From the NCBI GenBank assembly GCA_965267335.1, contig OZ253953.1, positions 1,818,662 through 1,882,661 of the forward strand: a stretch of DNA of 64,000 nucleotides. Direction: 5' to 3'. Origin of the DNA: Cytophagales bacterium (GTDB lineage Bacteria > Bacteroidota > Bacteroidia > Cytophagales > JAAEPT01). The notes under the pieces were generated by a model, which was given only the letters and a program-made list of their open reading frames with translations, had not been told where the DNA came from and made no database searches. The stretch's first letter is position 1; the number at the start of each line of letters is the position of its first letter. Positions 36,770 through 51,240 of this stretch are shown here, one piece after another. The position numbers and the translations under genes were made by a program.

Positions 36770-39700
36770 ATGAAAAGTGTAAAAAAACTCTTTTGCAGAG
36801 TTGCCTATACTATTGTAGGTATATTCTGTGTAATTCACACATCACATTCCCAGGATTTAAATATTTCAGGAGGTAACAGTGTTTCCGTAAGCTTGTGTGC
36901 CAATGGTGGTATTTTCGCTTGGGGGCAAAACTCACAAGGTAATAGTCCGAAATTGTATGGCCGACTTGGAACAGGCAACATGACCGATGACTTTGTCTCG
37001 ACTCCGGTTCAGGTAAACGTACCAGCAGCAGCTTTACCAATTAGACAGGTAGATGCAGGATCTGGAGGACATTTCGTGGCGCTTGGCTGTGATGGCACAG
37101 TTTGGGGATGGGGTAACAATGGGACAAGACAAGTAGGTAATACAACTGCAACAGCTGATGTTGTAACAGTACCTACACAAGTTATGGCCGGTGAAGGTAC
37201 AGATAATGATTCTGATGGTTTTCTGGATGGTGTATCTTATATATCCGGTGGAAATGATGAAAATTTTGCCATACTGGAAACGGGGGAAGTTGTTGCCTGG
37301 GGTCAGAACGATGAGGGACAATTAGGGAATGGGACCTTGATTGATGCTACAACTCCAGTACTAGTTAGAACAGGTCCGGGAGTAACCTTGCAAAATGTAA
37401 TTATGGTTGAAGCAGGTGATCAAACGGGGTATGCCTTGGTTGATCCTGATGGAGATGGTATTGGAACGGTGTATTCATGGGGTGATGGAGCAGATGGACG
37501 ATTAGGACGTGCTGACGCAGGGAATACTTATGCAGCTCCGGTGGTTAGACAGGATGGTTCAATTCTGGACAACATAAAATCGATTACGGGTGGAGATGTA
37601 ATGGCATTTGCTATTGATGAAAATGATTATGTATGGTCTTGGGGACATGGTAGCTGGGGACAGTTAACAGGTATAAATCAAAACTTAAGTCACCCCTATG
37701 CTTTGCAAGTTGTAGGAGGAGAAACAGGGGGAACTTACCTACAAGCAAGAGCAATATCCGCTGGTCAGGGATTTGGTATGGCTGTAACTCTAGATGGGAG
37801 AGCAGTTGCTTGGGGTAATAACAATAGCAATACAAATGGAGGGAATTTAGGGAACTGCGGAACTGCTGGTAGTGGTTCTCCGGTTTACATGAATACGGCT
37901 CCAGGCACACCTATTACTGGTGTCACAAATATCTCGGATGGTGATTACTGGGGGTTTATTACCAGAGACGATAATTCGATTTGGACCTGGGGTGGAAACG
38001 GAGTAGGTCAGCTTGGCTTGGGATATGACGGTGCACAGGAACTATGTTTAGTTCAAATGCCTGCTATTCCTGGTTGCGATTTCCCCGATCCTTCACCAAC
38101 TGCAAATTTGGGTGTGGATACAATTTATACCTGTGCGCCTGTCAGCGAATTGTTAGATCCCAACTTTACAAATCTTAATAACGAGTATGACATTACCTGG
38201 TACCATAACGATGTATCATTGGGTACGAACAAAACTGTAACTCACACAGCCAATGACTTTGGGGAATGGAAGGTAAGAATTAGTTATGTAGGTACAGATT
38301 CACCATGTAGTGCTTATGAAGATGCTCTTGATTCAGTTGTTATACTGGAAAACCCAACAACATTTAGTGATCCCGGAGGTCTTACATTTTGTAGTGGTGA
38401 CATTACCGCCAATGTAGTAGGGAACGGAAGTTATACCTGGTATACTGAGAGTGTAGGTGGTTCTTCATTAGGAACTTCCTCTGGGTCTGGTGATGTGACA
38501 TTTAACTCGGGATTGGTAACGAATGTAGCAGGGACCACATACTCAGTTTTTGTCGAAGAAACAGCCAATGCTGCCGGGTCCGTGATACCTAACGTTCCTG
38601 CAAGTGCCACCAATGTCAGCGGAACGCAATTCACAAATTCAGATATGTTCTTTACTACCAATGAAACTGTAACAATTGATTCCATGGATATATTGTTCAG
38701 ATCCTATAGTGCCACTGCAACCCTAACAATTCAGATGGAAGTTTATGGTTCAATGTCCGCTTGTGGATCTAAAACAGTTGCCGATAAAGGAAATATTTTA
38801 TACACAGGTGCAGCATCTACTGTTCATACTACTACTGTGACATCTCCGGGATGGGATGTTGCAAGAGTCCCGGTTAACATTACATTGCCTCCTGGGACCT
38901 ACTTTATTGGAGCTTCATCTGCCTCATCAATCAACAATGGTGCTGTAGGTTTTGTGAACGGAGAGGCCGGTATGCCAAATAACACAAATGATTTATCAAA
39001 TGGTAATACAGCTCGGGTAGATAATGTCACGGGTGATATTATTTCTGTTTTCGGATCTGATAAAGGTGATTGCCACGCTAATAATGGTGAACTGGGTTTA
39101 TACCACAACTGGCAGTTCAGAACCCTTCCACTGGCCTGTGAAAGGGTGCAGGTTGATATTGAACAATCTTGTCCGTGTGATAACCCGGGTACAGTATCAT
39201 TAAGTCCCGCAGGTCCTATCAGTATATGCGGAGGTAGCCAGACACTAACAGCCACACAAACCGGAACTCATTCCGGAGGTGGATTTGAATATGAATTTTT
39301 CAGAGGGGGTGTCAGTGTGCAAGGACCTGGTGCGTCCAACACCTACTCAGCTTCTGTAGCTGGGAACTATACAGTTGAGGTGACTGACCCAAGTGATGCA
39401 GCAAGTTGCAACGCGACTTCCAATACAGTTTCTCTTACTATTGATAGTCCTCCTTCAGCGGCTGCAGCAGGTACAAACCAAACTCAATGTGGAAGTACAA
39501 CTACGGCTACTTTAGCAGGAAATACACCGGCCACAGGCACCGGAACATGGTCATTGATCAGTGGATCAGGTACCGTAACCACCCCAAGTTCACCGACAAG
39601 TGGTATTACAGGTTTGGGCTTAGGTGCAAATGTATTCAGATGGACAATTAGCAATGGTTCTTGTCCGGATGAAACCGATGAGGTGACTATAACATTAGAC

Positions 39701-42700
39701 ACTCCTCCTTCAGCGGCTGCAGCTGGTAGTAATCAAACTCAATGTGAAACCACAACTACAGCTACCATGGCAGCAACAGCGCCAGCTACAGGAACTGGAG
39801 CTTGGACGTTGGTGAGTGGTTCGGGGACCGTAACCACGCCATCTTCACCTACCAGTGGAGTGACGGGCTTAGCTACCGGAGCGAATGTATTCCGATGGAC
39901 GGTAAGTAATGGAGTGTGTCCTGATGAAACAGACAATGTGACTATTACCCTTGATGCTGCTCCTTCAGCGGCTGCAGCGGGTAGTGCTCAGACTCAATGT
40001 GAAACAACGACAACGGCTACAATGGCTGCTACATCACCAGCAACCGGAACAGGAGCATGGTCTCTTGTCAGTGGGTCTGGTACGGTGACAACAGCCTCTT
40101 CGCCTACTAGTGGAGTTACAGGTCTTGGAGCTGGGGCCAATGTGTTCCGTTGGACAGTAAGTAACGGAGTCTGCCCGGACGAGACTGATGACGTAACAAT
40201 AACATTAGATGCAGCACCTTCAGCTGCAGCAGCCGGAGCCAACCAGGATGTATGTGAGACGCCTGGAACAGCAACCATGGCAGCGACCGCACCGGCAGTT
40301 GGTACCGGAACCTGGTCTTTGATAAGCGGTACCGGAACAATAACAACAGCAAACTCTGCTACATCTGGAATTACAGGACTTGGTACCGGAGCGAATGTAT
40401 TCCGTTGGACAGTGTCTGAACCTGGGTCTTGCCCAGACGAAACAGACGATGTAACGATCAATGTAGATGCAGCTCCAAGCACAGCTGTCGCTGGATCAAA
40501 CCAAACAATTTGTGCGAGCACAGCCACGATGGCAGCGACTGCACCAGCAACAGGAACGGGAACCTGGAGTTTGATTTCAGGAACAGGTTCAGCAACCTCA
40601 CCAAACTCAGCGACTTCGGGCATTACCGGATTAACTACGGGAACTAACACCTTCCGCTGGACGGTGAGCAATGGAGTATGCCCTGACGAAACAGATGAAG
40701 TAGATATTAATGTTTCAGCGACAGTAACAACTGCTGATGCAGGTCCAGCCCAGACACTATGTGCCGGCTCAACGGCAACCATGGCAGCGAATGCAGCAGG
40801 TGGAGGTGAAACAGGTACCTGGTCACTGGTAAGTGGATCAGGAACAATTACCAGTCCTAATTCGGAGACGACAACAATTACAGGACTTGGTTCAGGAGCC
40901 AATGTGTTCCGTTGGACCATAGATAATACAATTTGCCCGGTAAGTACGGATGAAGTAACCATTACGATTGACGATGCACCAAGCGCAGCGGTAGCAGGAA
41001 CAAATCAAACAGTATGTGAAACACCAGGCACGGCCACGATGGCAGCGACTGCACCAGCAACAGGAACAGGAACCTGGACCTTACAATCAGGTACGGGAAC
41101 AATAACAACTCCAAGTTCAGCCACAACAGGAATCACCGGTCTTGGAGCAGGAGCTAATGTATTCCGCTGGACAGTAAGCAATGGAGTATGCCCTGATGAA
41201 ACAGATGAAGTAACGATTACTGTTGATGCAGCACCAACCACAGCAAATGCAGGTCCTGCCCAGACAGAATGTGAAGGGACAACGATAACAATGGCAGCGA
41301 ACACCCCTGCAACAGGAACAGGTGTCTGGTCATTAATATCAGGAACCGGATCAGCCGACACACCTGGTGACCCGGCTTCCACAGTAAGTGGATTGACCGC
41401 AGGAAGCTCATCAACCTTCCGCTGGACGATTAGCAACGGAACCTGTCCGGATGAAACAGATGAAGTAGTAATAACCATTGATCAGGCCCCTACAGCAGCT
41501 AACGTAGGAGCTGACCTGAATGTGTGTATAGCAGACCCTATTAACCTGACAGGTAATAACCCATCGGTAGGAACAGGTATCTGGACAACAGGCCCTGCTA
41601 CCACAGGAGGTACAATAGATACACCAACCGACCCAACTTCGAGTGTAAGTGGAATGTCAGGAGGAGATGTGCTAGAGGCTATCTGGACAATATCTAACGG
41701 AGTGTGTCCAAGTGATGATGATACGATAACGATTACCGCAACAGGTGTGGCTTCACCAAGTGTGACCCTGAATGTAGACAACAGCCAGGTCTGTGAAGGA
41801 ACAGCAATCACTTTTACAGCCACAGGAAACAATGGAGGTTCAGCACCGACCTATGAGTTCTTCGATGGAACAAATACAAGTTTACAAGGACCGGGAGCAT
41901 CGAATACCTTTACAATAGCCGCTCCGAATCAGGATACAACGATTTATGTAGAGATGGTGTCCAACTCCAGCTGTTTGGGAGCCAACCCAGCAGATGTACA
42001 ATCAACGACAGTGGCAGTACAGGTAGACCTGAATCCTAGTACAGCAGATGCAGGTCCTGACCAAACGGTGTGTACGACTGATGCGACACTAGCTGCAGTA
42101 GCACCAACAACGGGTACAGGATCCTGGTCAGTAACATCCGGAACCGGAACAGTGACTACGATCAATGATCCGGGTTCACAGGTAACCGGACTGGCTGCAT
42201 CAAGCACAGTGACCCTGCAGTGGGAGGTAAGCAATGGAGTATGTCCGACCAGTACAGACGATGTAGACATTACAAGAACAGGAAGTCTGACAAGTCCGAA
42301 TGCAGGCCCTGACCAAACAATATGTGAGACAGGAACAGCAACCTTAGCGGCCAACGCAGTAGCCGGAGGTGAGACAGGCACCTGGACTACCTCAGGAGAT
42401 GGTACATTCAGTAATGCCAATGACGAAGCAGCTACTTATACGCCAGGAGCAACAGATATTACGAATGGTACAGCAACACTAACCTGGAGTATTGACAATG
42501 GAGTATGTCCAGTGGCTACAGATGAAGTAGACATCACAATTGATGGTATTCCAACAACAGCAGTGGCAGGAGCCGATGATGCGATTTGTACGGACGGTTA
42601 TCAGCTATCAGGTAACAACCCAACTGTAGGAACGGGAGCCTGGACGAGCAGTGATGGAGGGGTGACCTTTGACAACATCAACTTGTTTGATGCACAGGCG

Positions 42701-45403
42701 AGTAACATCCAAACAGGAGTGACAACCTTTACCTGGACAATCACCAATGGAGTATGTCCGGCCAGCACAGACGATGTAGACATCACAAGAAGCGGAAGCT
42801 TGACTACACCGTTAGCCGGAGCTGATCAAACAATATGTGAGACCGGAACAGCTACGATGGCAGCAAATGCAGCGGGAGGAGGAGAGACAGGAACCTGGTC
42901 AACAAGTGGAGACGGAACGTTTGATGATGTCAATAGCGAAACAGCAGTGTATACACCAGGAGCAACAGACATCACAAATGGAACAGTAACACTGACCTGG
43001 ACCATGAGCAATGGAGTGTGTCCTGATGCTACAAATACTATGGATGTAACTATTGAATCTACTCCAGTAGCAACCATTACAGATCCTGCGGGAGCAACCA
43101 AAACAATCAACGGAACCAGTACTACATTGACAGCAGCAGCTATCGGTGCTACGGAGGATGGATTGTGGAGTAAGCCAAATGCAGGTGATCAAGGAACATT
43201 ACAAGCTCCGCTGGATGCAACTACAGTAACATTGGACAATCTAAATACTTTTGAAAGCGGAATTGGAGATGGTACTACAGAAATATGCTGGACAGTAAGT
43301 ACGCAAACCGGTTCATGTCCAGATGATCAAGCATGTGTGGATGTAATCAGGAGAGATGTCAGTATCCCGAATGTGCAGCCACAAAGCGATACGATCTGTG
43401 AGAGTGGAGCACCAGCGGTTTTAATTACTGCTAATCCTTTACCGATTACGGCTAATGGCGAGACAAGCGCCTGGACAGCAATAGGAGCAGCGACATTTAC
43501 ACCATCCGGTGATGATATTCAGCCGACTAATACGACACCTGGTGTTTATCAGTATGTGTACGAGATTTCGAATCCGACACTTCCAGGTTCACCGGTGAAC
43601 TACGATACGGTAACGATTCAGATTGATGCAGCACCAAGTGCAGCATTGGCAGGTACGGATGAAAGTACTTGTCTGGAAGATTATCAACTAAGTGGTAATA
43701 CTCCTGCGGTTGGAACAGGTATGTGGACCGCTACCGGAGGGTTGACTTTTGATGATGCTACTAACCCTGCAGCGACTGCAAGTACCCTGGTCAGTGGGAA
43801 CTATACATTTACCTGGACAATTTCCAATGGAGTGTGTCCTGATGAAACGGATGATGTCGTTATTGATAAATTGGGAACAATTACATCTCCGGACCCTGGA
43901 ACATACTCAGATATTTGTGAGACAACCACAAGTGTTAATTTGAACGGAGCAGTTCCAAATGCAGGAAATGCGGAAACAGGTATGTGGACAGTAGGAGGAC
44001 CGGCAACTATTTCCGATGCAACGGATCCTGCGGCTGTATTGACTATTACAGGAACAGGGACCGTAAGTCTTGACTGGACCATTTCTAATGGAGTATGTCC
44101 GGATGGCACATTAAGTACAAGTTTTGATGTAGATGCCGATCCTAGTACGCCTGATCCTGGAAGTAACTTTAGTGTTTGTGGAGACGCAGGAACTCTTCCT
44201 GGAACAAACCCGGCAGTCGGGACAGGAACCTGGAGTACTCCTGGTACTATTACAATAGCTAATATGAATGACGCAGCAAGTACATTCTCCGGATTAAGTG
44301 GTTCAGCAGTATTGACCTGGACCGTGAGTACGGGAGGAGCTTGTGCTGATAAACAAGCATCGATCACAGTGACTAGTACAACACCGTTAACGCCTTCTGT
44401 GACTGTTTCACCGAGCCAGGACCCTGCCTGTTTTGCGGTAGATAACGTGACCTTTACGGCTACACCTACCAATGGTGGTCCAACACCAACTTATGACTGG
44501 ACAGTTAATGGCTCTCCGGTGCAAAGTGGTCCATCGGCTACTTTCTCAAGTAGTACTATTCAAAGTGGACAAACGGTGGCAGTAACTATGACTTCATCGG
44601 AGACATGTCTTGCATCGACAACGGCAACGGATAATACTAGTATTACTGTGGCGTTTGAGCCTAGCCCTGTAATCGGAACTCCTGATCAGTCCATCTGTGA
44701 GGATAGTCCGGTTACCCTTGAAGTATTCAACAGTGGTGGGAACCTACAGTGGTTTGAAGTTTCTTCGGGTGCTCTATCAAATACAACAAGTACGCATACG
44801 GTGTCAACTTCTGGTTCGTACTATGCAACTGAAGACAACGGGGTATGTCCTGCAGAATATTCAGATACTGTGACAATAAATGTTGATCAAGTGCCAGCGG
44901 TCAGTATTGGAGGACCTTATGATATCTATATTGGTGAAAGTGTCACATTAGATGCCACAATTAGCCCATCAGGTACACCAAGTTGGTCTCCTTCAATAGT
45001 CGAGCTAAGTAGCACTACAGTTGAGGATCCTGTCTTCACACCTTCGGTTGGTGGAATAGAAGATTTTACACTTGAAGTAACCAACGGTGGATGTGTTGCT
45101 TATGCAACGGTTCAGGTGATCGTTAGAGAACCAATCGTTATACCGAATGTATTTACGCCAAATGCCGATGGAGAAAATGATACTTGGGTAATTACCGGAT
45201 TAGATACCTATCCGGGTGCTACATTACAGGTATTCAATAGATGGGGAAGTCCGGTATACAGAGTGTCCGGTACAATTGCACCATGGGATGGGTTTAGAAA
45301 CGGAGAAGCAATGCCGACACACACCTATTACTATATTCTGGATTTGGGTATAGCAGATGATGATACGGATACGTTTACCGGTAGTGTGACAATAGTCAAA
45401 TAG
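36770..45403 (+). CDS. Giant (2877-aa) T9SS type-B cargo / adhesin-like protein: N-terminal RCC1 propeller, Ig-like domains, ~17 copies of an ~85-aa module, gliding-motility-associated C-terminal domain
   Basis: Uninterrupted 8.6-kb ORF with a signal peptide.
- nt ~36855-38040: seven RCC1 blades ('WGQNSQGNS', 'WGNNGTRQVGN', 'WGQNDEGQLGNG', 'WGDGADGRLGR', 'WGHGSWGQLTG', 'WGGNGVGQLGLG').
- nt 39446-44390: repeated module 'AG.NQT.C....A.MAA..PA.GTG.W.L.SG.G......S..SG.TGL..G.N.FRWT.SNG.CP.E.D.V.I'.
- C-terminus: 'IPNVFTPNADGENDTWVI...VFNRWGSPVY...HTYYYILDL', a type B CTD. Confidence 0.9.
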   Translation: MKSVKKLFCRVAYTIVGIFCVIHTSHSQDLNISGGNSVSVSLCANGGIFAWGQNSQGNSPKLYGRLGTGNMTDDFVSTPVQVNVPAAALPIRQVDAGSGGHFVALGCDGTVWGWGNNGTRQVGNTTATADVVTVPTQVMAGEGTDNDSDGFLDGVSYISGGNDENFAILETGEVVAWGQNDEGQLGNGTLIDATTPVLVRTGPGVTLQNVIMVEAGDQTGYALVDPDGDGIGTVYSWGDGADGRLGRADAGNTYAAPVVRQDGSILDNIKSITGGDVMAFAIDENDYVWSWGHGSWGQLTGINQNLSHPYALQVVGGETGGTYLQARAISAGQGFGMAVTLDGRAVAWGNNNSNTNGGNLGNCGTAGSGSPVYMNTAPGTPITGVTNISDGDYWGFITRDDNSIWTWGGNGVGQLGLGYDGAQELCLVQMPAIPGCDFPDPSPTANLGVDTIYTCAPVSELLDPNFTNLNNEYDITWYHNDVSLGTNKTVTHTANDFGEWKVRISYVGTDSPCSAYEDALDSVVILENPTTFSDPGGLTFCSGDITANVVGNGSYTWYTESVGGSSLGTSSGSGDVTFNSGLVTNVAGTTYSVFVEETANAAGSVIPNVPASATNVSGTQFTNSDMFFTTNETVTIDSMDILFRSYSATATLTIQMEVYGSMSACGSKTVADKGNILYTGAASTVHTTTVTSPGWDVARVPVNITLPPGTYFIGASSASSINNGAVGFVNGEAGMPNNTNDLSNGNTARVDNVTGDIISVFGSDKGDCHANNGELGLYHNWQFRTLPLACERVQVDIEQSCPCDNPGTVSLSPAGPISICGGSQTLTATQTGTHSGGGFEYEFFRGGVSVQGPGASNTYSASVAGNYTVEVTDPSDAASCNATSNTVSLTIDSPPSAAAAGTNQTQCGSTTTATLAGNTPATGTGTWSLISGSGTVTTPSSPTSGITGLGLGANVFRWTISNGSCPDETDEVTITLDTPPSAAAAGSNQTQCETTTTATMAATAPATGTGAWTLVSGSGTVTTPSSPTSGVTGLATGANVFRWTVSNGVCPDETDNVTITLDAAPSAAAAGSAQTQCETTTTATMAATSPATGTGAWSLVSGSGTVTTASSPTSGVTGLGAGANVFRWTVSNGVCPDETDDVTITLDAAPSAAAAGANQDVCETPGTATMAATAPAVGTGTWSLISGTGTITTANSATSGITGLGTGANVFRWTVSEPGSCPDETDDVTINVDAAPSTAVAGSNQTICASTATMAATAPATGTGTWSLISGTGSATSPNSATSGITGLTTGTNTFRWTVSNGVCPDETDEVDINVSATVTTADAGPAQTLCAGSTATMAANAAGGGETGTWSLVSGSGTITSPNSETTTITGLGSGANVFRWTIDNTICPVSTDEVTITIDDAPSAAVAGTNQTVCETPGTATMAATAPATGTGTWTLQSGTGTITTPSSATTGITGLGAGANVFRWTVSNGVCPDETDEVTITVDAAPTTANAGPAQTECEGTTITMAANTPATGTGVWSLISGTGSADTPGDPASTVSGLTAGSSSTFRWTISNGTCPDETDEVVITIDQAPTAANVGADLNVCIADPINLTGNNPSVGTGIWTTGPATTGGTIDTPTDPTSSVSGMSGGDVLEAIWTISNGVCPSDDDTITITATGVASPSVTLNVDNSQVCEGTAITFTATGNNGGSAPTYEFFDGTNTSLQGPGASNTFTIAAPNQDTTIYVEMVSNSSCLGANPADVQSTTVAVQVDLNPSTADAGPDQTVCTTDATLAAVAPTTGTGSWSVTSGTGTVTTINDPGSQVTGLAASSTVTLQWEVSNGVCPTSTDDVDITRTGSLTSPNAGPDQTICETGTATLAANAVAGGETGTWTTSGDGTFSNANDEAATYTPGATDITNGTATLTWSIDNGVCPVATDEVDITIDGIPTTAVAGADDAICTDGYQLSGNNPTVGTGAWTSSDGGVTFDNINLFDAQASNIQTGVTTFTWTITNGVCPASTDDVDITRSGSLTTPLAGADQTICETGTATMAANAAGGGETGTWSTSGDGTFDDVNSETAVYTPGATDITNGTVTLTWTMSNGVCPDATNTMDVTIESTPVATITDPAGATKTINGTSTTLTAAAIGATEDGLWSKPNAGDQGTLQAPLDATTVTLDNLNTFESGIGDGTTEICWTVSTQTGSCPDDQACVDVIRRDVSIPNVQPQSDTICESGAPAVLITANPLPITANGETSAWTAIGAATFTPSGDDIQPTNTTPGVYQYVYEISNPTLPGSPVNYDTVTIQIDAAPSAALAGTDESTCLEDYQLSGNTPAVGTGMWTATGGLTFDDATNPAATASTLVSGNYTFTWTISNGVCPDETDDVVIDKLGTITSPDPGTYSDICETTTSVNLNGAVPNAGNAETGMWTVGGPATISDATDPAAVLTITGTGTVSLDWTISNGVCPDGTLSTSFDVDADPSTPDPGSNFSVCGDAGTLPGTNPAVGTGTWSTPGTITIANMNDAASTFSGLSGSAVLTWTVSTGGACADKQASITVTSTTPLTPSVTVSPSQDPACFAVDNVTFTATPTNGGPTPTYDWTVNGSPVQSGPSATFSSSTIQSGQTVAVTMTSSETCLASTTATDNTSITVAFEPSPVIGTPDQSICEDSPVTLEVFNSGGNLQWFEVSSGALSNTTSTHTVSTSGSYYATEDNGVCPAEYSDTVTINVDQVPAVSIGGPYDIYIGESVTLDATISPSGTPSWSPSIVELSSTTVEDPVFTPSVGGIEDFTLEVTNGGCVAYATVQVIVREPIVIPNVFTPNADGENDTWVITGLDTYPGATLQVFNRWGSPVYRVSGTIAPWDGFRNGEAMPTHTYYYILDLGIADDDTDTFTGSVTIVK
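39446..41740 (+). repeat. Nine best-conserved tandem copies (period 246-258 bp, ~85 aa) of the giant-protein module; more divergent copies continue to ~44390
   Basis: Unit starts are read from the sequence at 39446, 39701, 39956, 40211, 40469, 40715, 40973, 41228 and 41483. Adjacent units encode very similar peptides but differ at many third-codon positions. Confidence 0.8.
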
Positions 45404-45475: not shown

Positions 45476-45516
45476 AAACCTCAGTCATAGAGCTTATGGC
45501 TGAGGTTTTGTATTTT
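45476..45516 (+). terminator. Rho-independent terminator downstream of the 2877-aa gene
   Basis: The stem 'cctcagtcat' (45479-45488) pairs with 'atggctgagg' (45496-45505), 10 bp with one G-U pair. The loop is 7 nt and is followed by 'ttttgtattttg'. Confidence 0.7.
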
Positions 45517-45523
45517 GTATATA

Positions 45524-47362
45524 ATGAGCACAATGAGGCCTACGAATAAGATAATATTGCTAGTACTGTTGTTGCTAAAGTTAGTTTCAGGGATGTCACA
45601 GGACAAGCTGGTGCTGGAGGACAAAGGGGAGATAGTTTGGGGCTATACATCCGGTTTGAAGGTATTGATTGATAGTAATGAGAATTATGCTTTTGAAGAT
45701 GTTTGTGGTAAGGAGTATGATAAATTATTTGTGCCGTACGAACAAGTTCAGTTTATTGTTTTAAATCCTGGCCTTCGGTATTACACCAAGCAAACCCTTA
45801 AAAACTCTACTCAGCGCCAGTCATGGATACTCGAATATATTGACCCACATTTGTCTGAATTGACGGTCAATATATATCACAAAGATTCTCTTGTGTTCTC
45901 AGGTATACAAGGTGCGGATATTAATAACTCAGTCATGAATATCAAGCATAAGAACTATGCCTGGGAAATCCAACTGCTGCCAGGTGAAGAGCATACGATC
46001 TATACCAAACTAAGTAGTAGGTATCATGGAGTTATACAGTATGTGATAAAACCCGTTACCGAATTTGTTAACTATGCCATGGTGGAGTACTACTTACTGG
46101 GATTTTTCTATGGAACACTGGTAATCATTGCGCTCTATCACCTGCTTCTTTTTTTTCAACTGAGGGAATGGTTTTTTCTCCATTATGTCTTTTACATTCT
46201 GACTGCAATTTTAGTAGGATTCTCAAATGATGGAATTGCCGCTCACATACTCTGGTCTGATAAGCCTCTGTTCAACCGGTTTTTGTTCAACTACAGCACA
46301 ATCATATTCATCTTTGCGTTGATTACGTATACGCGGAGTTTTATTAAGGTAAAGCATTTTTTTCCAGTCTATAACCGCTGGTTGAATGTAGCTCTCGTCC
46401 TTGCATTGGTTTATTACCTGTTGGAAATTTATGTAATAGACTTGAGGCTACAGTATGTCATTAATACCTTGATTTTCGTTATGACAGCGATTTTGTCATT
46501 TAAGACCTTCAAAAAGGGATACAGACCTGCACGATATTTTATAGTCGGCCACACCTGTGTAATCCTAAGCTTGCTGATTAATATTATGTTGATTTTTGGA
46601 CTTGTACCGGCAAATTACTTTACTGTCTATGCATTTTATTTTGCGCTTTACATAGAAATATTGGTTCTGTCAATCGCTGTTGGAGATCGGATTCGATGGG
46701 AGAAAGAAGAGCGACTGAAAGCCCAGGATACAGCCCTTAAAAAACTCAAGGAAGCAGAGGAAACAAAAGATAAATTGAACAGGGAATTAGAGAAGAAAGT
46801 AGAGGAACGTACCGTGGAATTACGCGAGGCAAATCAAAAACTGGCCATTCAGGCTGCTGAAATTACTGAGATGAATTTAAAGCTGGATTCATCGAACAGG
46901 CACCTTCGTAAGAAAGTAGAAGAAGTTTCTAAAAAGAGAATTCACGGGGAAGAGCTAGACCCGGAAGAATTCAGGAAGATCTACCCTGATAAATTAAGCT
47001 GTTATAAGTTTCTGGAAGAAATTAAGTGGCATAGTGGTTATCATTGTAAGAAGTGTTCCAACACAACATACAGCCCTGGCACCGGACTGCGAAGCAGACG
47101 CTGTACTAAGTGTGGAGTAAATGAAACCGTTACTTCCAACACTATTTTTCATAGACTGAGAATGCCGATAGAAAGTGCTTTCTATATGCTTGCTATGGTG
47201 GTACAAAGTAAGGGAAAGGTCTCATCTTCTGCCTTGGCTGAAAAAACAGGCATCAATCAAAAGAGTTGCTGGGCATTCCGACAAAAAATTATCGATAGAA
47301 TGAATCAATTGAAAGGGAAGAATGACTCGTGGGTGTCGGTAATTTTAGACTCTGTTTTTTAA
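45524..47362 (+). CDS. 7TMR-DISM receptor (DISMED2 extracellular domain + 7 TM) fused via a coiled coil to an IS1595-type transposase zinc-ribbon/HTH module
   Basis: The ORF track starts at TTG 45515, inside the upstream terminator, so ATG 45524 is preferred. It has a signal peptide, a ~170-aa extracellular domain and then 7 hydrophobic helices ('YYLLGFFYGTLVIIALYHLLLFF' ... 'AFYFALYIEILVLSIAV'). A ~100-aa charged coiled coil follows. The C-terminus is 'CYKFLEEIKWHSGYHCKKCSNTTY...RRCTKCGVNETVTSNTIFHRLRMPIESAFYMLAMVV...SSSALAEKTGINQKSCWAFRQKIIDRM'. This follows the Zn_Tnp_IS1595 pattern (C..C...C..C, 'T.F...k.p...w', HTH, 'aW....KIr.aM'). Confidence 0.8.
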   Translation: MSTMRPTNKIILLVLLLLKLVSGMSQDKLVLEDKGEIVWGYTSGLKVLIDSNENYAFEDVCGKEYDKLFVPYEQVQFIVLNPGLRYYTKQTLKNSTQRQSWILEYIDPHLSELTVNIYHKDSLVFSGIQGADINNSVMNIKHKNYAWEIQLLPGEEHTIYTKLSSRYHGVIQYVIKPVTEFVNYAMVEYYLLGFFYGTLVIIALYHLLLFFQLREWFFLHYVFYILTAILVGFSNDGIAAHILWSDKPLFNRFLFNYSTIIFIFALITYTRSFIKVKHFFPVYNRWLNVALVLALVYYLLEIYVIDLRLQYVINTLIFVMTAILSFKTFKKGYRPARYFIVGHTCVILSLLINIMLIFGLVPANYFTVYAFYFALYIEILVLSIAVGDRIRWEKEERLKAQDTALKKLKEAEETKDKLNRELEKKVEERTVELREANQKLAIQAAEITEMNLKLDSSNRHLRKKVEEVSKKRIHGEELDPEEFRKIYPDKLSCYKFLEEIKWHSGYHCKKCSNTTYSPGTGLRSRRCTKCGVNETVTSNTIFHRLRMPIESAFYMLAMVVQSKGKVSSSALAEKTGINQKSCWAFRQKIIDRMNQLKGKNDSWVSVILDSVF

Positions 47363-47431
47363 TAACTAGAAAATTCCAATTAGTGCTTATTTTTGCTTTA
47401 AAAGACTATTTTTTACTGTTCTTTAACGACT

Positions 47432-47539
47432 AAGGTTAACATAGAGTTAACAATATAAAACAACTTTTTTTGTACTTATTTCATATTTTATTGGACAAAT
47501 ATAATGTGCATCATTTATAATGATTGCATTGTTAACCTT
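47432..47539. promoter_or_regulatory. Candidate operator: three GTTAAC cores, with the outer two forming a 10-bp perfect inverted repeat
   Basis: 'aaggttaaca' (47432-47441) and 'tgttaacctt' (47530-47539) are exact reverse complements. A third 'gttaac' lies at 47446-47451. All are within the 194-bp region upstream of the GH5 ATG (47557). Confidence 0.25.
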
Positions 47540-47556
47540 ACCTACTTTACACGAAT

Positions 47557-50500
47557 ATGATACGCCTTAAAAAAATTTTATTGGGCGTTGCAATGACATT
47601 ATTGACCGTGACGTTGCATGCCCAAACCGCTACGCCTGTAGAGGCGTACGGACAACTTTCCGTTTCAGGAAATAAAATGATTAGTAATAATACCGGACAA
47701 CCTGTTCAACTGCGCGGAATGTCCTTGTTCTGGAGTCAATGGGAACCCGAGTTTTATACCTCAACCGCGATTTCTCAATTACGGAACGACTGGTGCACTG
47801 ATATAGTACGAGCTGCAATGGCGGTGGAAAGCGGTGGCTATTTGACAAATGCAACGGCTGAAGAGAATAAAGTCAGAGCTGTAATTGATGCGGCCATCGA
47901 TCAGGGGATGTACGTTATCGTTGACTGGCACGACCATAATGCACACAACCATACTAGTCAGGCAGTGGATTTTTTCTCAAGAATTGCACAAGATTATGGT
48001 AGTTACCCGAATATTATTTATGAAGTATTTAACGAACCTTTGAACATAAGTTGGTCCGGAAACATAAAGCCATATTGCGAGTCCGTTATAGCTGCGATAC
48101 GACAACATGATCCCAATAACATTATTGTATGCGGAACACCACAATGGTCTCAAAGAGTAGATCAGGCTTCTAATGACCCGATAACGAGTTCAACGAATAT
48201 CATGTATACCTTGCATTATTATGCCGGGTCACATGGTGCTACTTTGAGGTCCTATGGTGAAACTGCTATGAATAACGGGATAGCACTTTTTGTAACAGAG
48301 TTTGGTACCGTAAATGCCGATGGAAATGGTGCGGTTAATGAGGGTTCGTCAAATACCTGGTTCAGCTGGATGGATAGTCATGACTTGAGTTATTGTAACT
48401 GGTCCCTTTGCGACAAGGACGAGGGGTCAGCAGCACTAAGTCCGGGTACAGGTCCCAATGATGATTTTGAAACTAATCTTACTACTTCAGGTAGTTTTAT
48501 GTACAATCATTTTATTTCTACTTGTCCTGATTATGGAAACCCGCCTGATCCTGTTTATATAGATGTGCCTTCAAAAGTAGAGGCAGAGGATTATTCTTCT
48601 ATGTCTGGTATACAAACAGAAACAACCACCGATGCGGGTGGAGGTCAGAATGTTGGGTACATTGATAACGGAGATTGGATAGAGTTTAATATTAATGCAA
48701 CGGTTTCTGGAAATTTCAATTTTGAGTATAGGTTGGCTTCCAATGGTGGAGGCGGATCCTTTGAGTTATATATTGATAATACTTATGTGCACACCGTAAA
48801 TATTGGAGATACTGGTGGCTGGCAAAATTGGATCAGTACCAATGAGAGTGTAAATCTATCACTAGGTCAGCACACTATGAGGCTTGAAGCAACCGGGGGA
48901 GGATGGAACATTAACTATATCGATATTACGGCAAATGGTGTGGTGGATTGTAATGGTGATCCTGGTGGATCAGCAACCATTGATGATTGTGGAGAATGCT
49001 CCGGTGGCAATACCGGAGTCACTCCAAACTCATCATGTGTACAAGACTGTAATGGTGACTGGGGTGGAACCGCTGCAATAGATGGCTGTGGTGTATGCGC
49101 AGGAGGTAATACCGGAGTTGTCCCCGGTGAGTCTTGTGGTGGTGGTTGTCAACCTGGCTTCGGTCCCAATGGAATTTACGATGATTTTACCCTTGATACA
49201 GACCCGTTCAATGATAATGGAGGTGTGTATTCGTGGGGAGAAGCAGACCTCGGGGGAGATTCCAATCCTAATTTTCAGGCCATTGTACAACGGAATGCAG
49301 GTGCTGATAGGCTCGATGTTGAAGTCACTCAGGCCCAGGGTGAATATATTCCATTTGGTTTTTCATTTGGAGAATCACCGGTGCGAACCATTGATATCAG
49401 TTCAGATGGTACTTTTGAATTTGAATTTGAGAATACATCCAGTGATGATATTAACATCAACATAGCTATTCAGGATGTTAATGGTGACCTCATAAACACT
49501 TTTGCCTCAGCCAATGGACAGGCATTTGGCGATGCTTACTTACATGCCATTTCTACAAGTGTTAACGCAGGCGCTACCCGTACGTATTCCGGTGATTTTT
49601 CCAATGGGTATTATGCGGATTATGGTGCCGGACAATATGTTAGCACCTTTGACTACACTCAGGTCGCTACAGTCCTTATTACTGTAGTCAATCAAGATAA
49701 TACGGGCGCACCAAATTATCAACCACTGGCTATCAGTGGTACGACCATTGAAATGACCAAGATTAAAATAGGAGACTGTTCAGGAGCATACAATGACAAT
49801 GGAAAAGACTGTAATGGTGAAGTTGATGGTACTGCGTATGTAGATGATTGTGGTGTGTGTGCTGGAGGAAGTACTGGCATAACTCCAAATTCAACCTGTA
49901 CTCAGGATTGTAACGGAGAGTGGGATGGTACCGCATCTGTGGATGATTGTGGTGTATGCTCCGGTGGAAATACAGGAGTAACTCCAAATTCTACCTGTAC
50001 CCAGGATTGCAACGGAGAGTGGGATGGAACGGCCTCGGTTGACAACTGCGGAGTGTGTTCAGGAGGAAGTACAGGGATAACTCCAAACTCAACCTGTTCA
50101 CAGGATTGTAATGGGGAATGGGATGGCACCGCATCCGTGGATGATTGTGGTGTATGCTCGGGTGGAAATACGGGAGTAACTCCAAATTCTACCTGTACCC
50201 AAGATTGCAACGGAGAGTGGGACGGAACGGCCTCAGTTGACAACTGTGGAGTTTGTTCTGGAGGAAGTACAGGGATAACTCCAAACTCAACTTGTACGCA
50301 AGATTGTAACGGAGAATGGGATGGAACGGCCTCGGTTGACAATTGTGGAGTTTGTTCTGGAGGAAGCACTGGAATTACACCAAACTCAACCTGTTCTCAG
50401 GATTGTAACGGAGAATGGGGCGGCACGGCTTATCTTGACGGGTGTAACAATTGTGTGGCCGGTAATACTGGTCAATTGCCTTGTGATGATGATTGTGCAG

Positions 50501-51240
50501 GTGTTCCCGGTGGCTCAGCTTCAGTTGACAATTGTGGAGTGTGTTCTGGTGGTACAACGGGTATCACACCAAATTCTACCTGCTCACAAGATTGCAATGG
50601 TCAGTGGGGTGGTACAGCGAGTATTGATGATTGTGGGATATGTTCAGGAGGAAACACAGGAATAACACCCAACTCAAGTTGTACCCAAGACTGTAATGGA
50701 GATTGGGGAGGTACAGCCTATATTGATGGATGTAGTAACTGTGTTGGTGGCAATACGGGAGCGCTTCCGTGTGGAAACGACTGTGCAGGAGTAGCAGGAG
50801 GATCCGCATCCGTTGATAATTGTGGTGTTTGCTCTGGTGGGAATACAGGGATTACACCGAACTCCACTTGCACACAGGATTGTAACGGTGATTGGGGAGG
50901 AAGTGCAGACTATGATGTTTGTAATATTTGTTCAGGAGGAAACACTGGACAAACGCCTGAAACAAATCCAGACAATTGCATTAATTCAGTTGATGGTTTA
51001 GTGGACGGGGTTATGTTTAAGGTATACCCGAATCCATTTGAAAATTATTTGACTATTGAAGTTAATAACGACCTCACCTATAACTATACCATGACCAACC
51101 TACATGGTCAGGTGGTTTCATCTCGACAGGGAGCCACCGGTAACCTTAATTTATCTTTGGACAATATGTCGGGGGGAGTCTACTTAGTAAAAATCAGTTA
51201 TTCGGATAGTACGCAAATCATCAGGGTAACTAAACTGTAA
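47557..51240 (+). CDS. Glycoside hydrolase family 5 endoglucanase (cellulase) + CBM6 + Cys-rich 33-aa repeat arrays + T9SS type A C-terminal sorting domain
   Basis: 1227-aa ORF with a signal peptide. GH5 motifs are 'IYEVFNEPL' (acid/base Glu) and 'LFVTEFGT' (nucleophile Glu). The CBM6-like segment is 'VEAEDYSSMSGIQTETTTDAGGGQNVGYIDNGDWIEF...GGWNINYIDI'. Repeats have the form 'DCNG.W.GTA..D.CG.C.GGNTG'. The C-terminus 'FKVYPNPFENYLTIEV...GVYLVKISYSDSTQIIRVTKL' is a Por_Secre_tail. Confidence 0.9.
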   Translation: MIRLKKILLGVAMTLLTVTLHAQTATPVEAYGQLSVSGNKMISNNTGQPVQLRGMSLFWSQWEPEFYTSTAISQLRNDWCTDIVRAAMAVESGGYLTNATAEENKVRAVIDAAIDQGMYVIVDWHDHNAHNHTSQAVDFFSRIAQDYGSYPNIIYEVFNEPLNISWSGNIKPYCESVIAAIRQHDPNNIIVCGTPQWSQRVDQASNDPITSSTNIMYTLHYYAGSHGATLRSYGETAMNNGIALFVTEFGTVNADGNGAVNEGSSNTWFSWMDSHDLSYCNWSLCDKDEGSAALSPGTGPNDDFETNLTTSGSFMYNHFISTCPDYGNPPDPVYIDVPSKVEAEDYSSMSGIQTETTTDAGGGQNVGYIDNGDWIEFNINATVSGNFNFEYRLASNGGGGSFELYIDNTYVHTVNIGDTGGWQNWISTNESVNLSLGQHTMRLEATGGGWNINYIDITANGVVDCNGDPGGSATIDDCGECSGGNTGVTPNSSCVQDCNGDWGGTAAIDGCGVCAGGNTGVVPGESCGGGCQPGFGPNGIYDDFTLDTDPFNDNGGVYSWGEADLGGDSNPNFQAIVQRNAGADRLDVEVTQAQGEYIPFGFSFGESPVRTIDISSDGTFEFEFENTSSDDININIAIQDVNGDLINTFASANGQAFGDAYLHAISTSVNAGATRTYSGDFSNGYYADYGAGQYVSTFDYTQVATVLITVVNQDNTGAPNYQPLAISGTTIEMTKIKIGDCSGAYNDNGKDCNGEVDGTAYVDDCGVCAGGSTGITPNSTCTQDCNGEWDGTASVDDCGVCSGGNTGVTPNSTCTQDCNGEWDGTASVDNCGVCSGGSTGITPNSTCSQDCNGEWDGTASVDDCGVCSGGNTGVTPNSTCTQDCNGEWDGTASVDNCGVCSGGSTGITPNSTCTQDCNGEWDGTASVDNCGVCSGGSTGITPNSTCSQDCNGEWGGTAYLDGCNNCVAGNTGQLPCDDDCAGVPGGSASVDNCGVCSGGTTGITPNSTCSQDCNGQWGGTASIDDCGICSGGNTGITPNSSCTQDCNGDWGGTAYIDGCSNCVGGNTGALPCGNDCAGVAGGSASVDNCGVCSGGNTGITPNSTCTQDCNGDWGGSADYDVCNICSGGNTGQTPETNPDNCINSVDGLVDGVMFKVYPNPFENYLTIEVNNDLTYNYTMTNLHGQVVSSRQGATGNLNLSLDNMSGGVYLVKISYSDSTQIIRVTKL
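48946..49149 (+). repeat. Two copies of the Cys-rich 33-aa module (first block)
   Basis: 'DCNGDPGGSATIDDCGECSGGNTGVTPNSSCVQ' and 'DCNGDWGGTAAIDGCGVCAGGNTGVVPGESCGGGC'. A ~215-aa unrelated domain separates them from the main array. Confidence 0.75.
49807..50979 (+). repeat. Main array of ~12 tandem 99-bp (33-aa) Cys-rich modules, with a 198-bp two-unit super-period in the core
   Basis: Unit starts are at 49807, 49906, 50005, 50104, 50203, 50302 and 50401, exactly 99 bp apart. Looser copies then continue to ~50979. Core units alternate between '...SVDDCGVCSGGNTGVTPNSTCTQ' and '...SVDNCGVCSGGSTGITPNSTC(S/T)Q'. Confidence 0.9.

What the first reader, a model, noticed from the sequence alone, without database searches (positions are those of the whole stretch)
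45524..47362. 7TMR-DISM receptor whose output is a domesticated IS1595 transposase zinc-ribbon/HTH module
7TMR-DISM receptors normally signal through kinase, cyclase/GGDEF or phosphatase domains. Here the cytoplasmic tail is a ~100-aa coiled coil followed by the N-terminal DNA-binding module of IS1595-family transposases. That module comprises a CxxC...CxxC ribbon, 'TIFHRLRMPIESAFYML', and the HTH 'SSSALAEKTGINQKSCWAFRQKIIDRM'. The ORF stops ~25 aa later.

There is no DDE catalytic domain, no terminal inverted repeats and only 190 bp of AT-rich DNA before the next gene. This looks like a membrane-tethered one-component regulator of the ToxR/CadC type, built from a captured transposase DNA-binding domain. 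It sits between a giant adhesin gene and a GH5 cellulase gene whose upstream region carries GTTAAC inverted repeats.
Basis: partly seen in the sequence, partly recalled or inferred. Interest (0 to 1): 0.65.

Follow-up and report, generated by a model that had tools for sequence, protein, structure and literature searches.

The report
Glycan receptor with transposase-derived DNA-binding tail
This gene encodes a seven-helix membrane receptor whose cytoplasmic output is the DNA-binding head of an IS1595 transposase. It belongs to a large, unstudied Bacteroidota family that sits next to sugar-harvesting genes and probably switches them on directly.

Summary
ORF 45524-47362 (+) encodes 612 aa with this layout:
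- signal peptide
- 7TMR-DISMED2 beta-sandwich
- 7TMR-DISM seven-helix bundle
- an ~80-aa signalling helix carrying the 'ERT' signature
- a 128-aa CxxC..CxxC zinc ribbon plus tri-helical HTH

The tail is 41% identical, without gaps, over 116 aa to the N-terminus of genuine IS1595 transposases. There is no DDE domain, no terminal inverted repeats and no remnant anywhere in the window.

It is not a one-off. A search of 1.84 billion proteins gave 712 cluster representatives at E<=1e-10. Nearly all of the 150 best hits carry the module at the C-terminus. All 63 relatives of ~600 aa that I scanned are 7TMR-DISM receptors. All 8 relatives of ~1000 aa are Reg_prop/Y_Y_Y sensors, the type found in hybrid two-component systems.

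In 52 of 70 informative genome loci the next gene is SusC-sized. All 5 pairs tested were SusC/SusD. In the window's own subclade the next gene is the same secreted GH5-CBM6 cellulase.

My best reading is a single-polypeptide glycan sensor that binds DNA and controls the adjacent glycan-degradation gene. DNA binding is inferred, not shown. I found no paper describing it. Databases call it '7TM ... domain-containing protein', 'ParA' or 'hypothetical'.

The parts
45476..45518 (+). Terminator-like hairpin plus T-tract, ending 6-15 nt before the receptor start codon. It either ends the adhesin transcript or lies in the receptor's 5' leader.
   Evidence: 14-15 bp stem. The equivalent position in L082 has a hairpin with a different stem sequence and the same loop.
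45524..47362 (+). Receptor-regulator gene, 612 aa. Alternative starts are TTG 45515 and ATG 45533.
45539..45586 (+). N-terminal signal or anchor helix (aa 6-21).
   Evidence: AlphaFold helix 6-21.
45608..46054 (+). Periplasmic 7TMR-DISMED2 beta-sandwich (aa 29-177), the presumed ligand (glycan) sensor.
   Evidence: Pfam PF07696, E 7e-9. The model is all-beta over 29-177.
46055..46699 (+). 7TMR-DISM seven-helix membrane bundle (aa 178-392).
   Evidence: Pfam PF07695, E 7e-35. The model shows seven long helices.
46700..46939 (+). Cytoplasmic coiled coil / signalling helix (aa 393-472), continuous with TM7. The 'ERT' signature is at aa 428-430 (46805-46813).
   Evidence: Single helix 370-472. VEERTVEL is present, and R429 and T430 are at least 90% conserved in 63 relatives. 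The ERT signature defines the S-helix (PMC1592074).
46961..47344 (+). IS1595-transposase-derived DNA-binding module (aa 480-607): two leading helices, a four-Cys zinc ribbon and a tri-helical HTH.
   Evidence: 41% identity over 116 aa with no gaps to the true transposase P0126. AlphaFold pLDDT 87, pTM 0.80. PF12760 hits 58 of 63 relatives.
47045..47113 (+). Zinc ribbon, C508-x2-C511 ... C527-x2-C530.
   Evidence: All four Cys are invariant in 63 relatives.
47168..47308 (+). Tri-helical HTH: helices 549-561, 568-575 and 579-595. The last is the presumed recognition helix, QKSCWAFRQKIIDRMNQ.
   Evidence: The recognition-helix motif RQKTCWxFxxK is shared with the transposases.
47363..47556 (.). 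194-bp spacer between the receptor gene and the GH5 gene. This is the candidate regulatory region.
47416..47432 (+). Block GTTCTTTAACGACTAA, conserved with the spacer of the closest syntenic relative (L082: GTTTTTTAACGACTAA).
   Evidence: Alignment A5.
47431..47441 (+). Left arm of the perfect 11-nt inverted repeat TAAGGTTAACA. A further GTTAAC lies at 47446-47451.
47530..47540 (+). Right arm, TGTTAACCTTA, 88 nt from the left arm and 17 nt before the GH5 start codon.
   Evidence: A sigma-70-like 11/12 match (47492-47521) lies between the arms. Bacteroidota promoters differ, so this match carries little weight.
47557..51240 (+). Presumed target gene: secreted GH5 cellulase with CBM6 and a T9SS sorting tail.
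   Evidence: Pfam. The same gene follows the regulator in L081 and L082, and is 78% identical in L082.
36770..45403 (+). Upstream giant RCC1/PKD/CHU_C T9SS surface protein. It is a syntenic neighbour and a possible second target.
   Evidence: Pfam. A CHU_C protein also precedes the regulator in L082.

Best explanation
The gene encodes a transmembrane one-component transcription regulator.

Proposed signal path:
1. A periplasmic DISMED2 beta-sandwich senses a glycan or a glycan breakdown product.
2. The seven-helix bundle and a dimeric signalling helix (with the ERT signature) carry the conformational change to the cytoplasm.
3. A zinc-ribbon plus HTH module, taken over from an IS1595 transposase, binds DNA in the 194-bp spacer downstream.
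4. This controls transcription of the adjacent secreted GH5 cellulase, and possibly of the neighbouring adhesin.

It is one member of a large Bacteroidota family. In most relatives the controlled genes are a SusC/SusD polysaccharide-utilisation operon.

Shown here: the architecture, homology of the tail to transposase N-termini, absence of transposition machinery, conservation of the fusion, and the conserved gene neighbourhood.

Inferred: the ligand class, dimerisation, DNA binding, the operator, and the sign of regulation. I favour activation by the membrane-bound protein. Release of the module by proteolysis is a variant that I cannot exclude.
For: Architecture.

Homology to real transposases:
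- Gap-free 111-column alignment of the module with the N-termini of 15 transposases. Mean identity between 7TM-receptor modules and transposases is 44%, against 49% among the 7TM-receptor modules themselves.
- The recognition-helix motif is shared.
- These transposases are mobile. They have 13-bp terminal inverted repeats and 8-bp target duplications, and identical copies lie in at least 4 different contexts.

Conservation of the fusion:
- 4187 hits at E<=1e-3 and 712 at E<=1e-10.
- The module lies at the C-terminus in nearly all of the 150 best hits.
- 63 of 63 relatives have DISMED2+7TM, 58 of 63 hit PF12760, and the four Cys are invariant.

Portable output: 8 of 8 relatives of ~1000 aa are Reg_prop+Y_Y_Y sensors ending in the same module. 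In a neighbour-joining tree the two sensor types are intermixed.

Functional linkage:
- 52 of 70 informative loci have a gene of at least 900 aa next on the same strand (median gap 304 bp). All 5 tested were SusC-like, each followed by SusD.
- Other downstream genes include a glucoamylase-like hydrolase and T9SS-tailed proteins.
- A Reg_prop variant closes a SusD/GH43 locus.
- In the window's subclade, the regulator-then-GH5-CBM6 arrangement is conserved in L081 and L082, although the regulators are only about 40% identical.

Cis elements:
- The window spacer has a perfect 11-nt inverted repeat and a block shared with L082.
- SusC-linked relatives carry two direct copies of T(T/A)AAGCG(T/A)AT-like sequence, 64-92 bp apart.
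- [AC][GC]CGTAT occurs at 1.86 per kb on the coding strand of these spacers, 0 on the other strand, and 0.13 per kb in other spacers. Two or more copies occur in 10 of 52 target spacers against 0 of 215 others.

S-helix: the ERT signature is present and conserved.

Topology: an N-terminal periplasmic domain plus 7 TM helices puts the tail in the cytoplasm.
Against: - No experiment or solved structure shows that this module binds DNA. Foldseek against the PDB gave no significant match (best E 1.4; the weak partial hits were mostly HTH regulators and zinc ribbons). A sequence profile found nothing in the PDB.
- The window protein alone misses the PF12760 gathering score.
- The motif enriched in SusC-linked relatives is absent from the window spacer. 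The window's GTTAAC repeat is not conserved in L082. So no single operator is established.
- Many of the 80 loci are related genera, so the enrichment counts are not independent.
- The strict strand bias of the motif could instead point to a promoter or an RNA-level element used by another factor.
- 18 of 70 loci lack a SusC-sized neighbour. Two of those have a fumarase gene next.
- A terminator-like hairpin abuts the start codon, so the gene's own promoter is unclear.
Confidence: 0.62

Rival explanations
1. Same receptor, but the tail is not a DNA-binding output. The zinc ribbon plus helical domain binds a protein (for example it sequesters a sigma factor, like zinc-binding anti-sigma domains) or an RNA. 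Control of the neighbouring genes would then be indirect.
For: ECF sigma/anti-sigma pairs are a standard type of PUL regulator (established knowledge). DNA binding is untested. The motif in relatives is strictly strand-specific, which would suit an RNA element. There is no significant structural match to a DNA-bound protein.
Against: The module is homologous along its whole length to the DNA-recognition end of active transposases and keeps their HTH recognition-helix motif. No sigma-factor gene is a conserved neighbour: of 10 upstream genes tested, 9 were unrelated and 1 was an ECF sigma on the opposite strand. None lies next to the window gene. The weak fold matches are mostly HTH transcription factors.
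Confidence: 0.15
2. Release mechanism. The receptor is an inactive membrane-held precursor. Ligand binding triggers proteolysis in the low-confidence linker (aa 461-479), which frees a soluble zinc-ribbon/HTH regulator.
For: The only disordered stretch of the cytoplasmic part lies exactly between the coiled coil and the module (pLDDT below 50 at 461-478). The database holds Met-initiated module-only proteins of ~140 aa, which shows the module could act alone.
Against: There is no protease gene or cleavage motif conserved nearby. The conserved S-helix with its ERT signature is typical of reversible conformational signalling between covalently linked domains. The short proteins may be fragments of metagenomic gene calls.
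Confidence: 0.15
3. IS-related scar or transposition regulator. Either the fusion is an accident of an IS1595 insertion into a conventional receptor gene, or the protein binds IS ends to control transposition, like truncated transposase repressors.
For: The module is transposase-derived. PF12760 is routinely used to label transposases.
Against: The fusion is conserved in hundreds of divergent lineages, with invariant zinc ligands and an intact reading frame. There is no DDE remnant, no IS terminal repeat and no other IS1595 copy in 64 kb. The module is tightly and repeatedly linked to SusC/SusD or GH5 genes rather than to IS elements.
Confidence: 0.02

Closest known systems
7TMR-DISM receptors (e.g. 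RetS, LadS, SagS, RgsP; Anantharaman & Aravind 2003)
   Same: The DISMED2 periplasmic domain and the seven-helix DISM bundle both pass Pfam thresholds. An S-helix links the sensor to the output.
   Different: Known outputs are histidine kinase, GGDEF/EAL, PP2C phosphatase or cyclase domains. Here the output is a zinc-ribbon/HTH module with no enzyme domain at all.
IS1595-family transposases (ISXO2-like; Pfam PF12760 + PF12762; NCBIfam NF033547)
   Same: The N-terminal ~115 aa (two helices, four-Cys ribbon, tri-helical HTH) align without gaps at 33-45% identity to the window module, and the recognition-helix motif RQKTCWxFKQK is shared.
   Different: No DDE catalytic domain, no terminal inverted repeats, no target duplication, single copy, and fused behind a membrane receptor.
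Membrane-bound one-component regulators (ToxR, TcpP, CadC) and the membrane-embedded DNA-binding chitin sensor ChiS
   Same: One polypeptide would sense outside the cell and bind DNA inside it. The ChiS-type DNA-binding domain is even found on 7TMR-DISM proteins in Proteobacteria.
   Different: ToxR and CadC have an N-terminal OmpR-type winged helix, one TM helix and a C-terminal periplasmic sensor. ChiS-type proteins keep kinase and receiver domains, and their DNA-binding fold is different. Here the order is sensor, then 7 TM helices, then S-helix, then zinc-ribbon/HTH.
Hybrid two-component systems (HTCS) and other PUL regulators of Bacteroidota (SusR, ECF sigma/anti-sigma)
   Same: The genomic position is the same, directly beside SusC/SusD or glycoside hydrolase genes. 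Sister proteins use the HTCS-type Reg_prop/Y_Y_Y sensor.
   Different: No HisKA, HATPase, receiver or AraC-type HTH. Signal transfer would not involve phosphorylation.
Domesticated transposase DNA-binding domains acting as transcription factors (THAP, BED, paired/Pax, FHY3/FAR1 in eukaryotes) - from general knowledge
   Same: The sequence-specific DNA-recognition end of a transposase is reused as a regulator, and the catalytic domain is lost.
   Different: This is a bacterial case, fused to transmembrane sensors, and the source is IS1595/Merlin-type rather than those superfamilies.

Membership tests
7TMR-DISM receptor family | 7TMR-DISM_7TM seven-helix membrane region (PF07695) | tested here: met
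   E 7.4e-35, 121 bits against a cut-off of 29, full-length match 1-205/205. The AlphaFold model shows seven helices.
7TMR-DISM receptor family | N-terminal extracellular DISMED1 or DISMED2 domain | tested here: met
   PF07696, 36.2 bits against a cut-off of 22. The model is a beta-sandwich over aa 29-177.
7TMR-DISM receptor family | Cytoplasmic enzymatic signalling module (kinase, GGDEF, PP2C or cyclase) | tested here: not met
   No such Pfam or NCBIfam domain. The tail is a coiled coil plus a zinc-ribbon/HTH.
IS1595 family transposase | N-terminal zinc ribbon (PF12760) | tested here: inconclusive
   21.8 bits against a gathering score of 25.4 in the window protein. 58 of 63 relatives hit it, with a best E of 7e-10. 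Direct alignment to true transposases is highly significant.
IS1595 family transposase | DDE_Tnp_IS1595 catalytic domain (PF12762), or passing NCBIfam NF033547 | tested here: not met
   No PF12762 hit. NF033547 scores 22.6 against a cut-off of 75 and covers only profile positions 3-53. tblastn finds no DDE remnant in the 64 kb.
IS1595 family transposase | Terminal inverted repeats and an 8-bp target-site duplication; multiple copies | tested here: not met
   Related elements have the terminal repeat TTGAATTAGGCAT and an 8-bp duplication. Nothing comparable flanks the gene. The module occurs once in the window.
ToxR/CadC-type membrane-bound regulators | N-terminal cytoplasmic OmpR-type winged-helix domain, a single TM helix and a C-terminal periplasmic sensor | tested here: not met
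   No Trans_reg_C hit. The domain order is reversed and there are seven TM helices. This is a functional analogy only.
Signalling helix (S-helix) linkers | A ~40-residue heptad helix between sensor and output, with a central 'ERT' signature | tested here: met
   VEERTVEL at aa 426-433 lies inside the continuous helix 370-472. R429 and T430 are at least 90% conserved. The definition comes from PMC1592074. Dimerisation was not tested.
Hybrid two-component system PUL regulators | Reg_prop/Y_Y_Y sensor plus HisKA, HATPase, receiver and AraC HTH | tested here: not met
   None of these domains is in the window protein. Only sister proteins share the sensor.
Polysaccharide utilisation locus (PUL) component | Adjacent SusC/SusD pair | tested here: not met
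   No ORF next to the gene is SusC- or SusD-like, and none of the 19 window ORFs I scanned is. The neighbour is a T9SS-secreted GH5. The feature is met in relatives: 52 of 70 loci, and 5 of 5 tested pairs.
Sequence-specific DNA-binding transcription regulator | Demonstrated binding to an operator and an effect on transcription | not testable with these tools
   Only candidate cis elements were found.

The most novel reading that the evidence does not exclude
Environmental Bacteroidota (Cytophagales, Sphingobacteriales, Chitinophagales and some Flavobacteriales) have an unrecognised major class of glycan-utilisation regulators. These are single-chain transmembrane sensors, either 7TMR-DISM or Reg_prop/Y_Y_Y. 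They bypass phosphorelay and bind DNA directly through a DNA-recognition module exapted once from an IS1595 transposase and then shuffled between sensor types. They would read two same-strand half-sites 64-92 bp apart in front of susC/susD or secreted cellulase genes.
Probability: 0.5. Interest if true: 0.72.

Novelty: new variant of a known kind. Interest (0 to 1): 0.62.

Why it matters
Regulators are known for only some polysaccharide-utilisation loci, and mainly in gut Bacteroides (HTCS, SusR, ECF sigma/anti-sigma). For soil and aquatic Bacteroidota, and for cellulolytic lineages that secrete enzymes through the type IX system, it is largely unknown how glycans are sensed.

A family with hundreds of divergent members, placed directly in front of SusC/SusD or GH5 genes, gives several things:
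- a concrete and testable candidate, with a proposed operator, for that missing control layer;
- a clear bacterial example of a transposase DNA-binding head being domesticated as a portable signalling output;
- an extension of the known outputs of 7TMR-DISM receptors to direct DNA binding.

There is also a practical point. PF12760 hits are used to flag mobile elements, and some family members are named 'ParA' or 'LadS'. Genome annotation and mobilome counts for these proteins are therefore wrong.

Tried and rejected
- A word-indexed protein search with the C-terminal 205 aa found only two relatives, which understated the family. The exhaustive search corrected this.
A four-sequence alignment worked.
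- No genome in the species collection carries a close orthologue (best module identity 53%), so the organism of the window was not identified.
- Literature searches combining 7TMR-DISM/7TM with PUL, SusC or SusD, and searches for PF12760 or IS1595 domestication, found no description of this fusion.
- The IS-insertion-scar idea was rejected.
- The anti-sigma idea was weakened because no sigma gene is a conserved neighbour.
- I looked for similarity between the terminal repeat of related IS elements (TTGAATTAGGCAT) and the candidate operators. Nothing convincing emerged.
- I could not find one operator shared by the window and the SusC-linked relatives. [AC][GC]CGTAT is absent from the window spacer. 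The resemblance between TTTAACGAC and TTAAAGCGAT is too loose to claim.
- The sigma-70-type promoter match between the repeat arms was not used as evidence, because Bacteroidota promoters differ.
Full report
**1. What is in the sequence**

An ORF runs from 45515 (TTG) or 45524 (ATG) to 47362 on the + strand.

Pfam places three domains:
- 7TMR-DISMED2 at aa 44-167 (E 7e-9), above the gathering score.
- 7TMR-DISM_7TM at aa 188-389 (E 7e-35), above the gathering score.
- Zn_ribbon_IS1595 (PF12760) at aa 492-531, E 1.8e-4 and 21.8 bits. The gathering score is 25.4.

The NCBIfam IS1595 transposase model matches aa 546-595 to its first 53 positions only.

A full-length AlphaFold model (pLDDT 78.8) gives this layout:
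- signal or anchor helix, aa 6-21
- all-beta domain, aa 29-177
- seven membrane helices
- one unbroken helix, aa 370-472 (TM7 plus about 80 cytoplasmic residues)
- a low-confidence linker, aa 461-478
- a compact C-terminal domain

The tail modelled on its own is confident (pLDDT 87, pTM 0.80). It has two short helices, a beta-hairpin ribbon carrying C508/C511/C527/C530, and three helices at 549-561, 568-575 and 579-595 that form an HTH.

The coiled coil contains VEERTVEL. R429 and T430 are at least 90% conserved across relatives. This is the 'ERT' signature that defines the signalling helix, which links sensors to outputs in many receptors (PMC1592074).

**2. Is the tail really transposase-derived, and is it a scar?**

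I searched 1.84 billion representative proteins with the last 140 aa. This returned 4187 hits at E<=1e-3 and 712 at E<=1e-10.

One of the top 150 hits, P0126 (308 aa), is a genuine transposase:
- It carries Zn_ribbon_IS1595 plus DDE_Tnp_IS1595 and passes the NCBIfam IS1595 cut-off.
- It is 41% identical to the window tail over 116 residues with no gap.
- Its relatives are annotated IS1595 transposases of Saprospiraceae and Flavobacteriales.
- For one relative, identical copies lie in at least four unrelated contexts. They are bounded by the 13-bp inverted repeat TTGAATTAGGCAT and an 8-bp target duplication. These are active insertion sequences.

In a gap-free 111-column alignment, 7TM-receptor modules and transposase N-termini average 44% identity. 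The 7TM-receptor modules average 49% among themselves. The recognition-helix motif RQKTCWxFxxK is shared.

The window has no transposition machinery. tblastn of the transposase against all 64 kb hits only 46967-47314. The IS terminal repeat is not found near the gene above chance. Only 194 bp separate the stop codon from the next gene. The insertion-scar explanation is excluded.

**3. The fusion is a family**

Nearly all of the 150 best hits are 580-660 aa long with the module at the extreme C-terminus.
- Of 63 such proteins, 63 have DISMED2 and the DISM 7TM region. 58 hit PF12760, with a best E of 7e-10. The four cysteines are invariant.
- Eight hits of about 1000 aa all have Reg_prop repeats plus Y_Y_Y. 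This is the periplasmic sensor of Bacteroides hybrid two-component systems. It is followed by the same module.
- In a neighbour-joining tree the two sensor types are intermixed, while the transposases form one separate tight clade. This fits one capture followed by shuffling of the module between sensors. The tree is crude and unbootstrapped.

Public names for these proteins are '7TM diverse intracellular signaling domain-containing protein', 'chromosome partitioning protein ParA', 'sensor histidine kinase LadS' or 'hypothetical'. None recognises the output domain.

**4. Genomic context gives the function**

A scan of one genome per species returned 80 loci, all Bacteroidota. They include Pedobacter, Mucilaginibacter, Albibacterium, Chitinophaga, Cytophagaceae, Cyclobacteriaceae, Flammeovirgaceae, Fulvivirga, Marinoscillum and some Flavobacteriales.

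I called ORFs myself in these loci.
- In 52 of 70 loci with enough downstream DNA, the next gene lies on the same strand at a median gap of 304 bp and encodes at least 900 aa. It is followed by a gene of 470-670 aa.
- Five of five such pairs, from different genera, are SusC-like TonB-dependent transporters followed by SusD.
- Among the exceptions are a truncated SusC, a glucoamylase-like hydrolase and type IX-secreted proteins.
- A Reg_prop-type member closes a locus containing SusD, an FG-GAP/ASPIC protein and GH43.
- Upstream genes are heterogeneous. Only one of ten tested is an ECF sigma factor.

The window's own subclade behaves the same way with a different partner.
- In L082 the order is CHU_C surface protein, then regulator, then GH5+CBM6. 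In L081 it is regulator, then GH5+CBM6+Por_Secre_tail. This matches the window.
- The GH5 proteins of the window and L082 are 78% identical, but the regulators only 40% (61% in the module). So the pairing has been kept while the sensor diverged quickly.

**5. Candidate cis elements**

The window spacer (47363-47556) contains:
- three GTTAAC sites, against 16 in the whole 64 kb;
- a perfect 11-nt inverted repeat, TAAGGTTAACA/TGTTAACCTTA, with 88 nt between the arms (this long or longer in 37 of 2000 shuffles);
- a 16-nt block, GTTCTTTAACGACTAA, shared 15/16 with L082.

In SusC-linked relatives a different and clearer signal appears: two same-strand copies of T(T/A)AAGCG(T/A)AT-like sequence. 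They are 64-66 bp apart in Cytophagales and 77-92 bp apart in Sphingobacteriales.
- [AC][GC]CGTAT occurs at 1.86 per kb on the coding strand of these spacers, never on the other strand, and at 0.13 per kb per strand in other spacers of the same loci.
- Two or more copies occur in 10 of 52 target spacers against 0 of 215 others.
- Exact 8-mer direct repeats with at least three G or C, at 60-95 bp spacing, occur in 17 of 50 target spacers, 17 of 156 background spacers and a mean of 3.3 of 50 shuffled spacers.

These counts are inflated by relatedness among the loci. The motif is not in the window. I treat all of these as candidate operators, not as evidence of binding.

**6. Mechanism**

The topology puts the module in the cytoplasm: a periplasmic N-terminal domain followed by seven TM helices. 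The S-helix is the usual dimeric relay between a membrane sensor and its output.

I therefore propose a phosphorelay-free, single-chain regulator. Glycan sensing by DISMED2 or the 7TM bundle changes the register of the S-helix. This changes how two zinc-ribbon/HTH heads engage DNA in front of the adjacent gene.

Still inferred: DNA binding, the operator, the ligand, the direction of regulation, and whether the protein acts while membrane-bound or after cleavage in the disordered linker.

No structure of an IS1595 N-terminus exists to compare with. The weak fold matches are mostly HTH regulators and zinc ribbons.

**7. Comparison with what is known**

- It is a true 7TMR-DISM receptor with a non-canonical output.
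- It is not an IS1595 transposase, because the catalytic domain, terminal repeats and target duplications are all absent.
- It works like ToxR, CadC or ChiS but shares none of their defining domains or topology.
- It occupies the genomic niche of HTCS, SusR and ECF regulators without their domains.
- A partial precedent exists: a ChiS-type DNA-binding domain on 7TMR-DISM kinases in Proteobacteria.
- I found no paper that describes this fusion or links 7TMR-DISM proteins to polysaccharide utilisation loci. The library holds only open-access papers and preprints, so absence there is not proof of absence.

**8. Verdict**

I rate it a new variant of a known kind (transmembrane one-component regulators and domesticated transposase DNA-binding domains). 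Interest is moderately high because the family is large, unannotated and tied to glycan utilisation in environmental Bacteroidota.

Noticed in passing
window 45476-45518; L082 1917-1955: A strong hairpin plus T-tract ends only 6-15 nt before the regulator's start codon. The same position in L082 has a hairpin with a different stem sequence (compensatory changes) and the same AGAGCTT loop. It may be a terminator for the adhesin gene that the regulator's transcript must read through or start within.
   Followed up: partly
window 47557-51240 vs L082 3963-6356; window 45524-47362 vs P0003: The GH5 cellulases are 78% identical, but the adjacent regulators are only 40% identical (61% in the DNA-binding module). 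Either the sensor evolves unusually fast or a paralogue replaced it.
   Followed up: partly
window 15557-18886 (-) and 13184-15451 (+): A Reg_prop + Y_Y_Y sensor with a SpoIIE/PP2C phosphatase output lies next to a GH3 glycosidase gene. This is a second non-kinase glycan-sensor design in the same window.
   Followed up: no
window 35870-36457 (-): A NUMOD4 + HNH_3 homing-endonuclease-like ORF (195 aa) sits alone between a GH16-CBM6 gene and the giant adhesin gene.
   Followed up: no
window ~48950-50980 (GH5 protein aa ~465-1140): About 13 tandem Cys-rich repeats of ~33 aa (DCNGxWxGTAxxDxCGVCSGGxTGxTPNSxCxQ) fill the C-terminal half of the cellulase, between CBM6 and the T9SS tail. No Pfam domain covers them.
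   Followed up: no
window 19117-30059 and 36770-45403: Two giant RCC1-repeat surface proteins with CHU_C type IX secretion tails (3345 and 2877 aa). The first is followed by a PorP/SprF gene and an OmpA/TPR/PD40 protein. None of the 19 window ORFs I scanned is SusC- or SusD-like. This suggests a Cytophaga-like, secretion-based glycan strategy.
   Followed up: partly
L088, L091, L093, L095 (about 1140-2105 in each): The related genuine IS1595 element is ~960 bp long, with 13-bp terminal inverted repeats TTGAATTAGGCAT, an internal partial copy of the repeat and an 8-bp target duplication (AAATTTTA in L088). Identical copies lie in at least four contexts.
   Followed up: yes
spacers between the regulator gene and susC in L002, L004, L009, L011, L013, L024, L026, L032, L033, L040, L068, L075, L076, L078: Paired same-strand T(T/A)AAGCG(T/A)AT-like sites at 64-92 bp spacing, conserved across orders while the flanking sequence diverges. 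The strict strand bias is unexplained.
   Followed up: partly
proteins P0035, P0125, P0135, P0138 (one search list): Met-initiated proteins of ~140 aa that consist of the zinc-ribbon/HTH module alone. They could be free-standing regulators or truncated metagenomic gene calls.
   Followed up: no
L044, L048, L052 (Flavobacteriales MAGs): The regulator is flanked upstream by a 1670-1800-aa protein and downstream by a ~290-aa Por_Secre_tail protein. This echoes the window's order of giant protein, regulator, T9SS substrate.
   Followed up: partly
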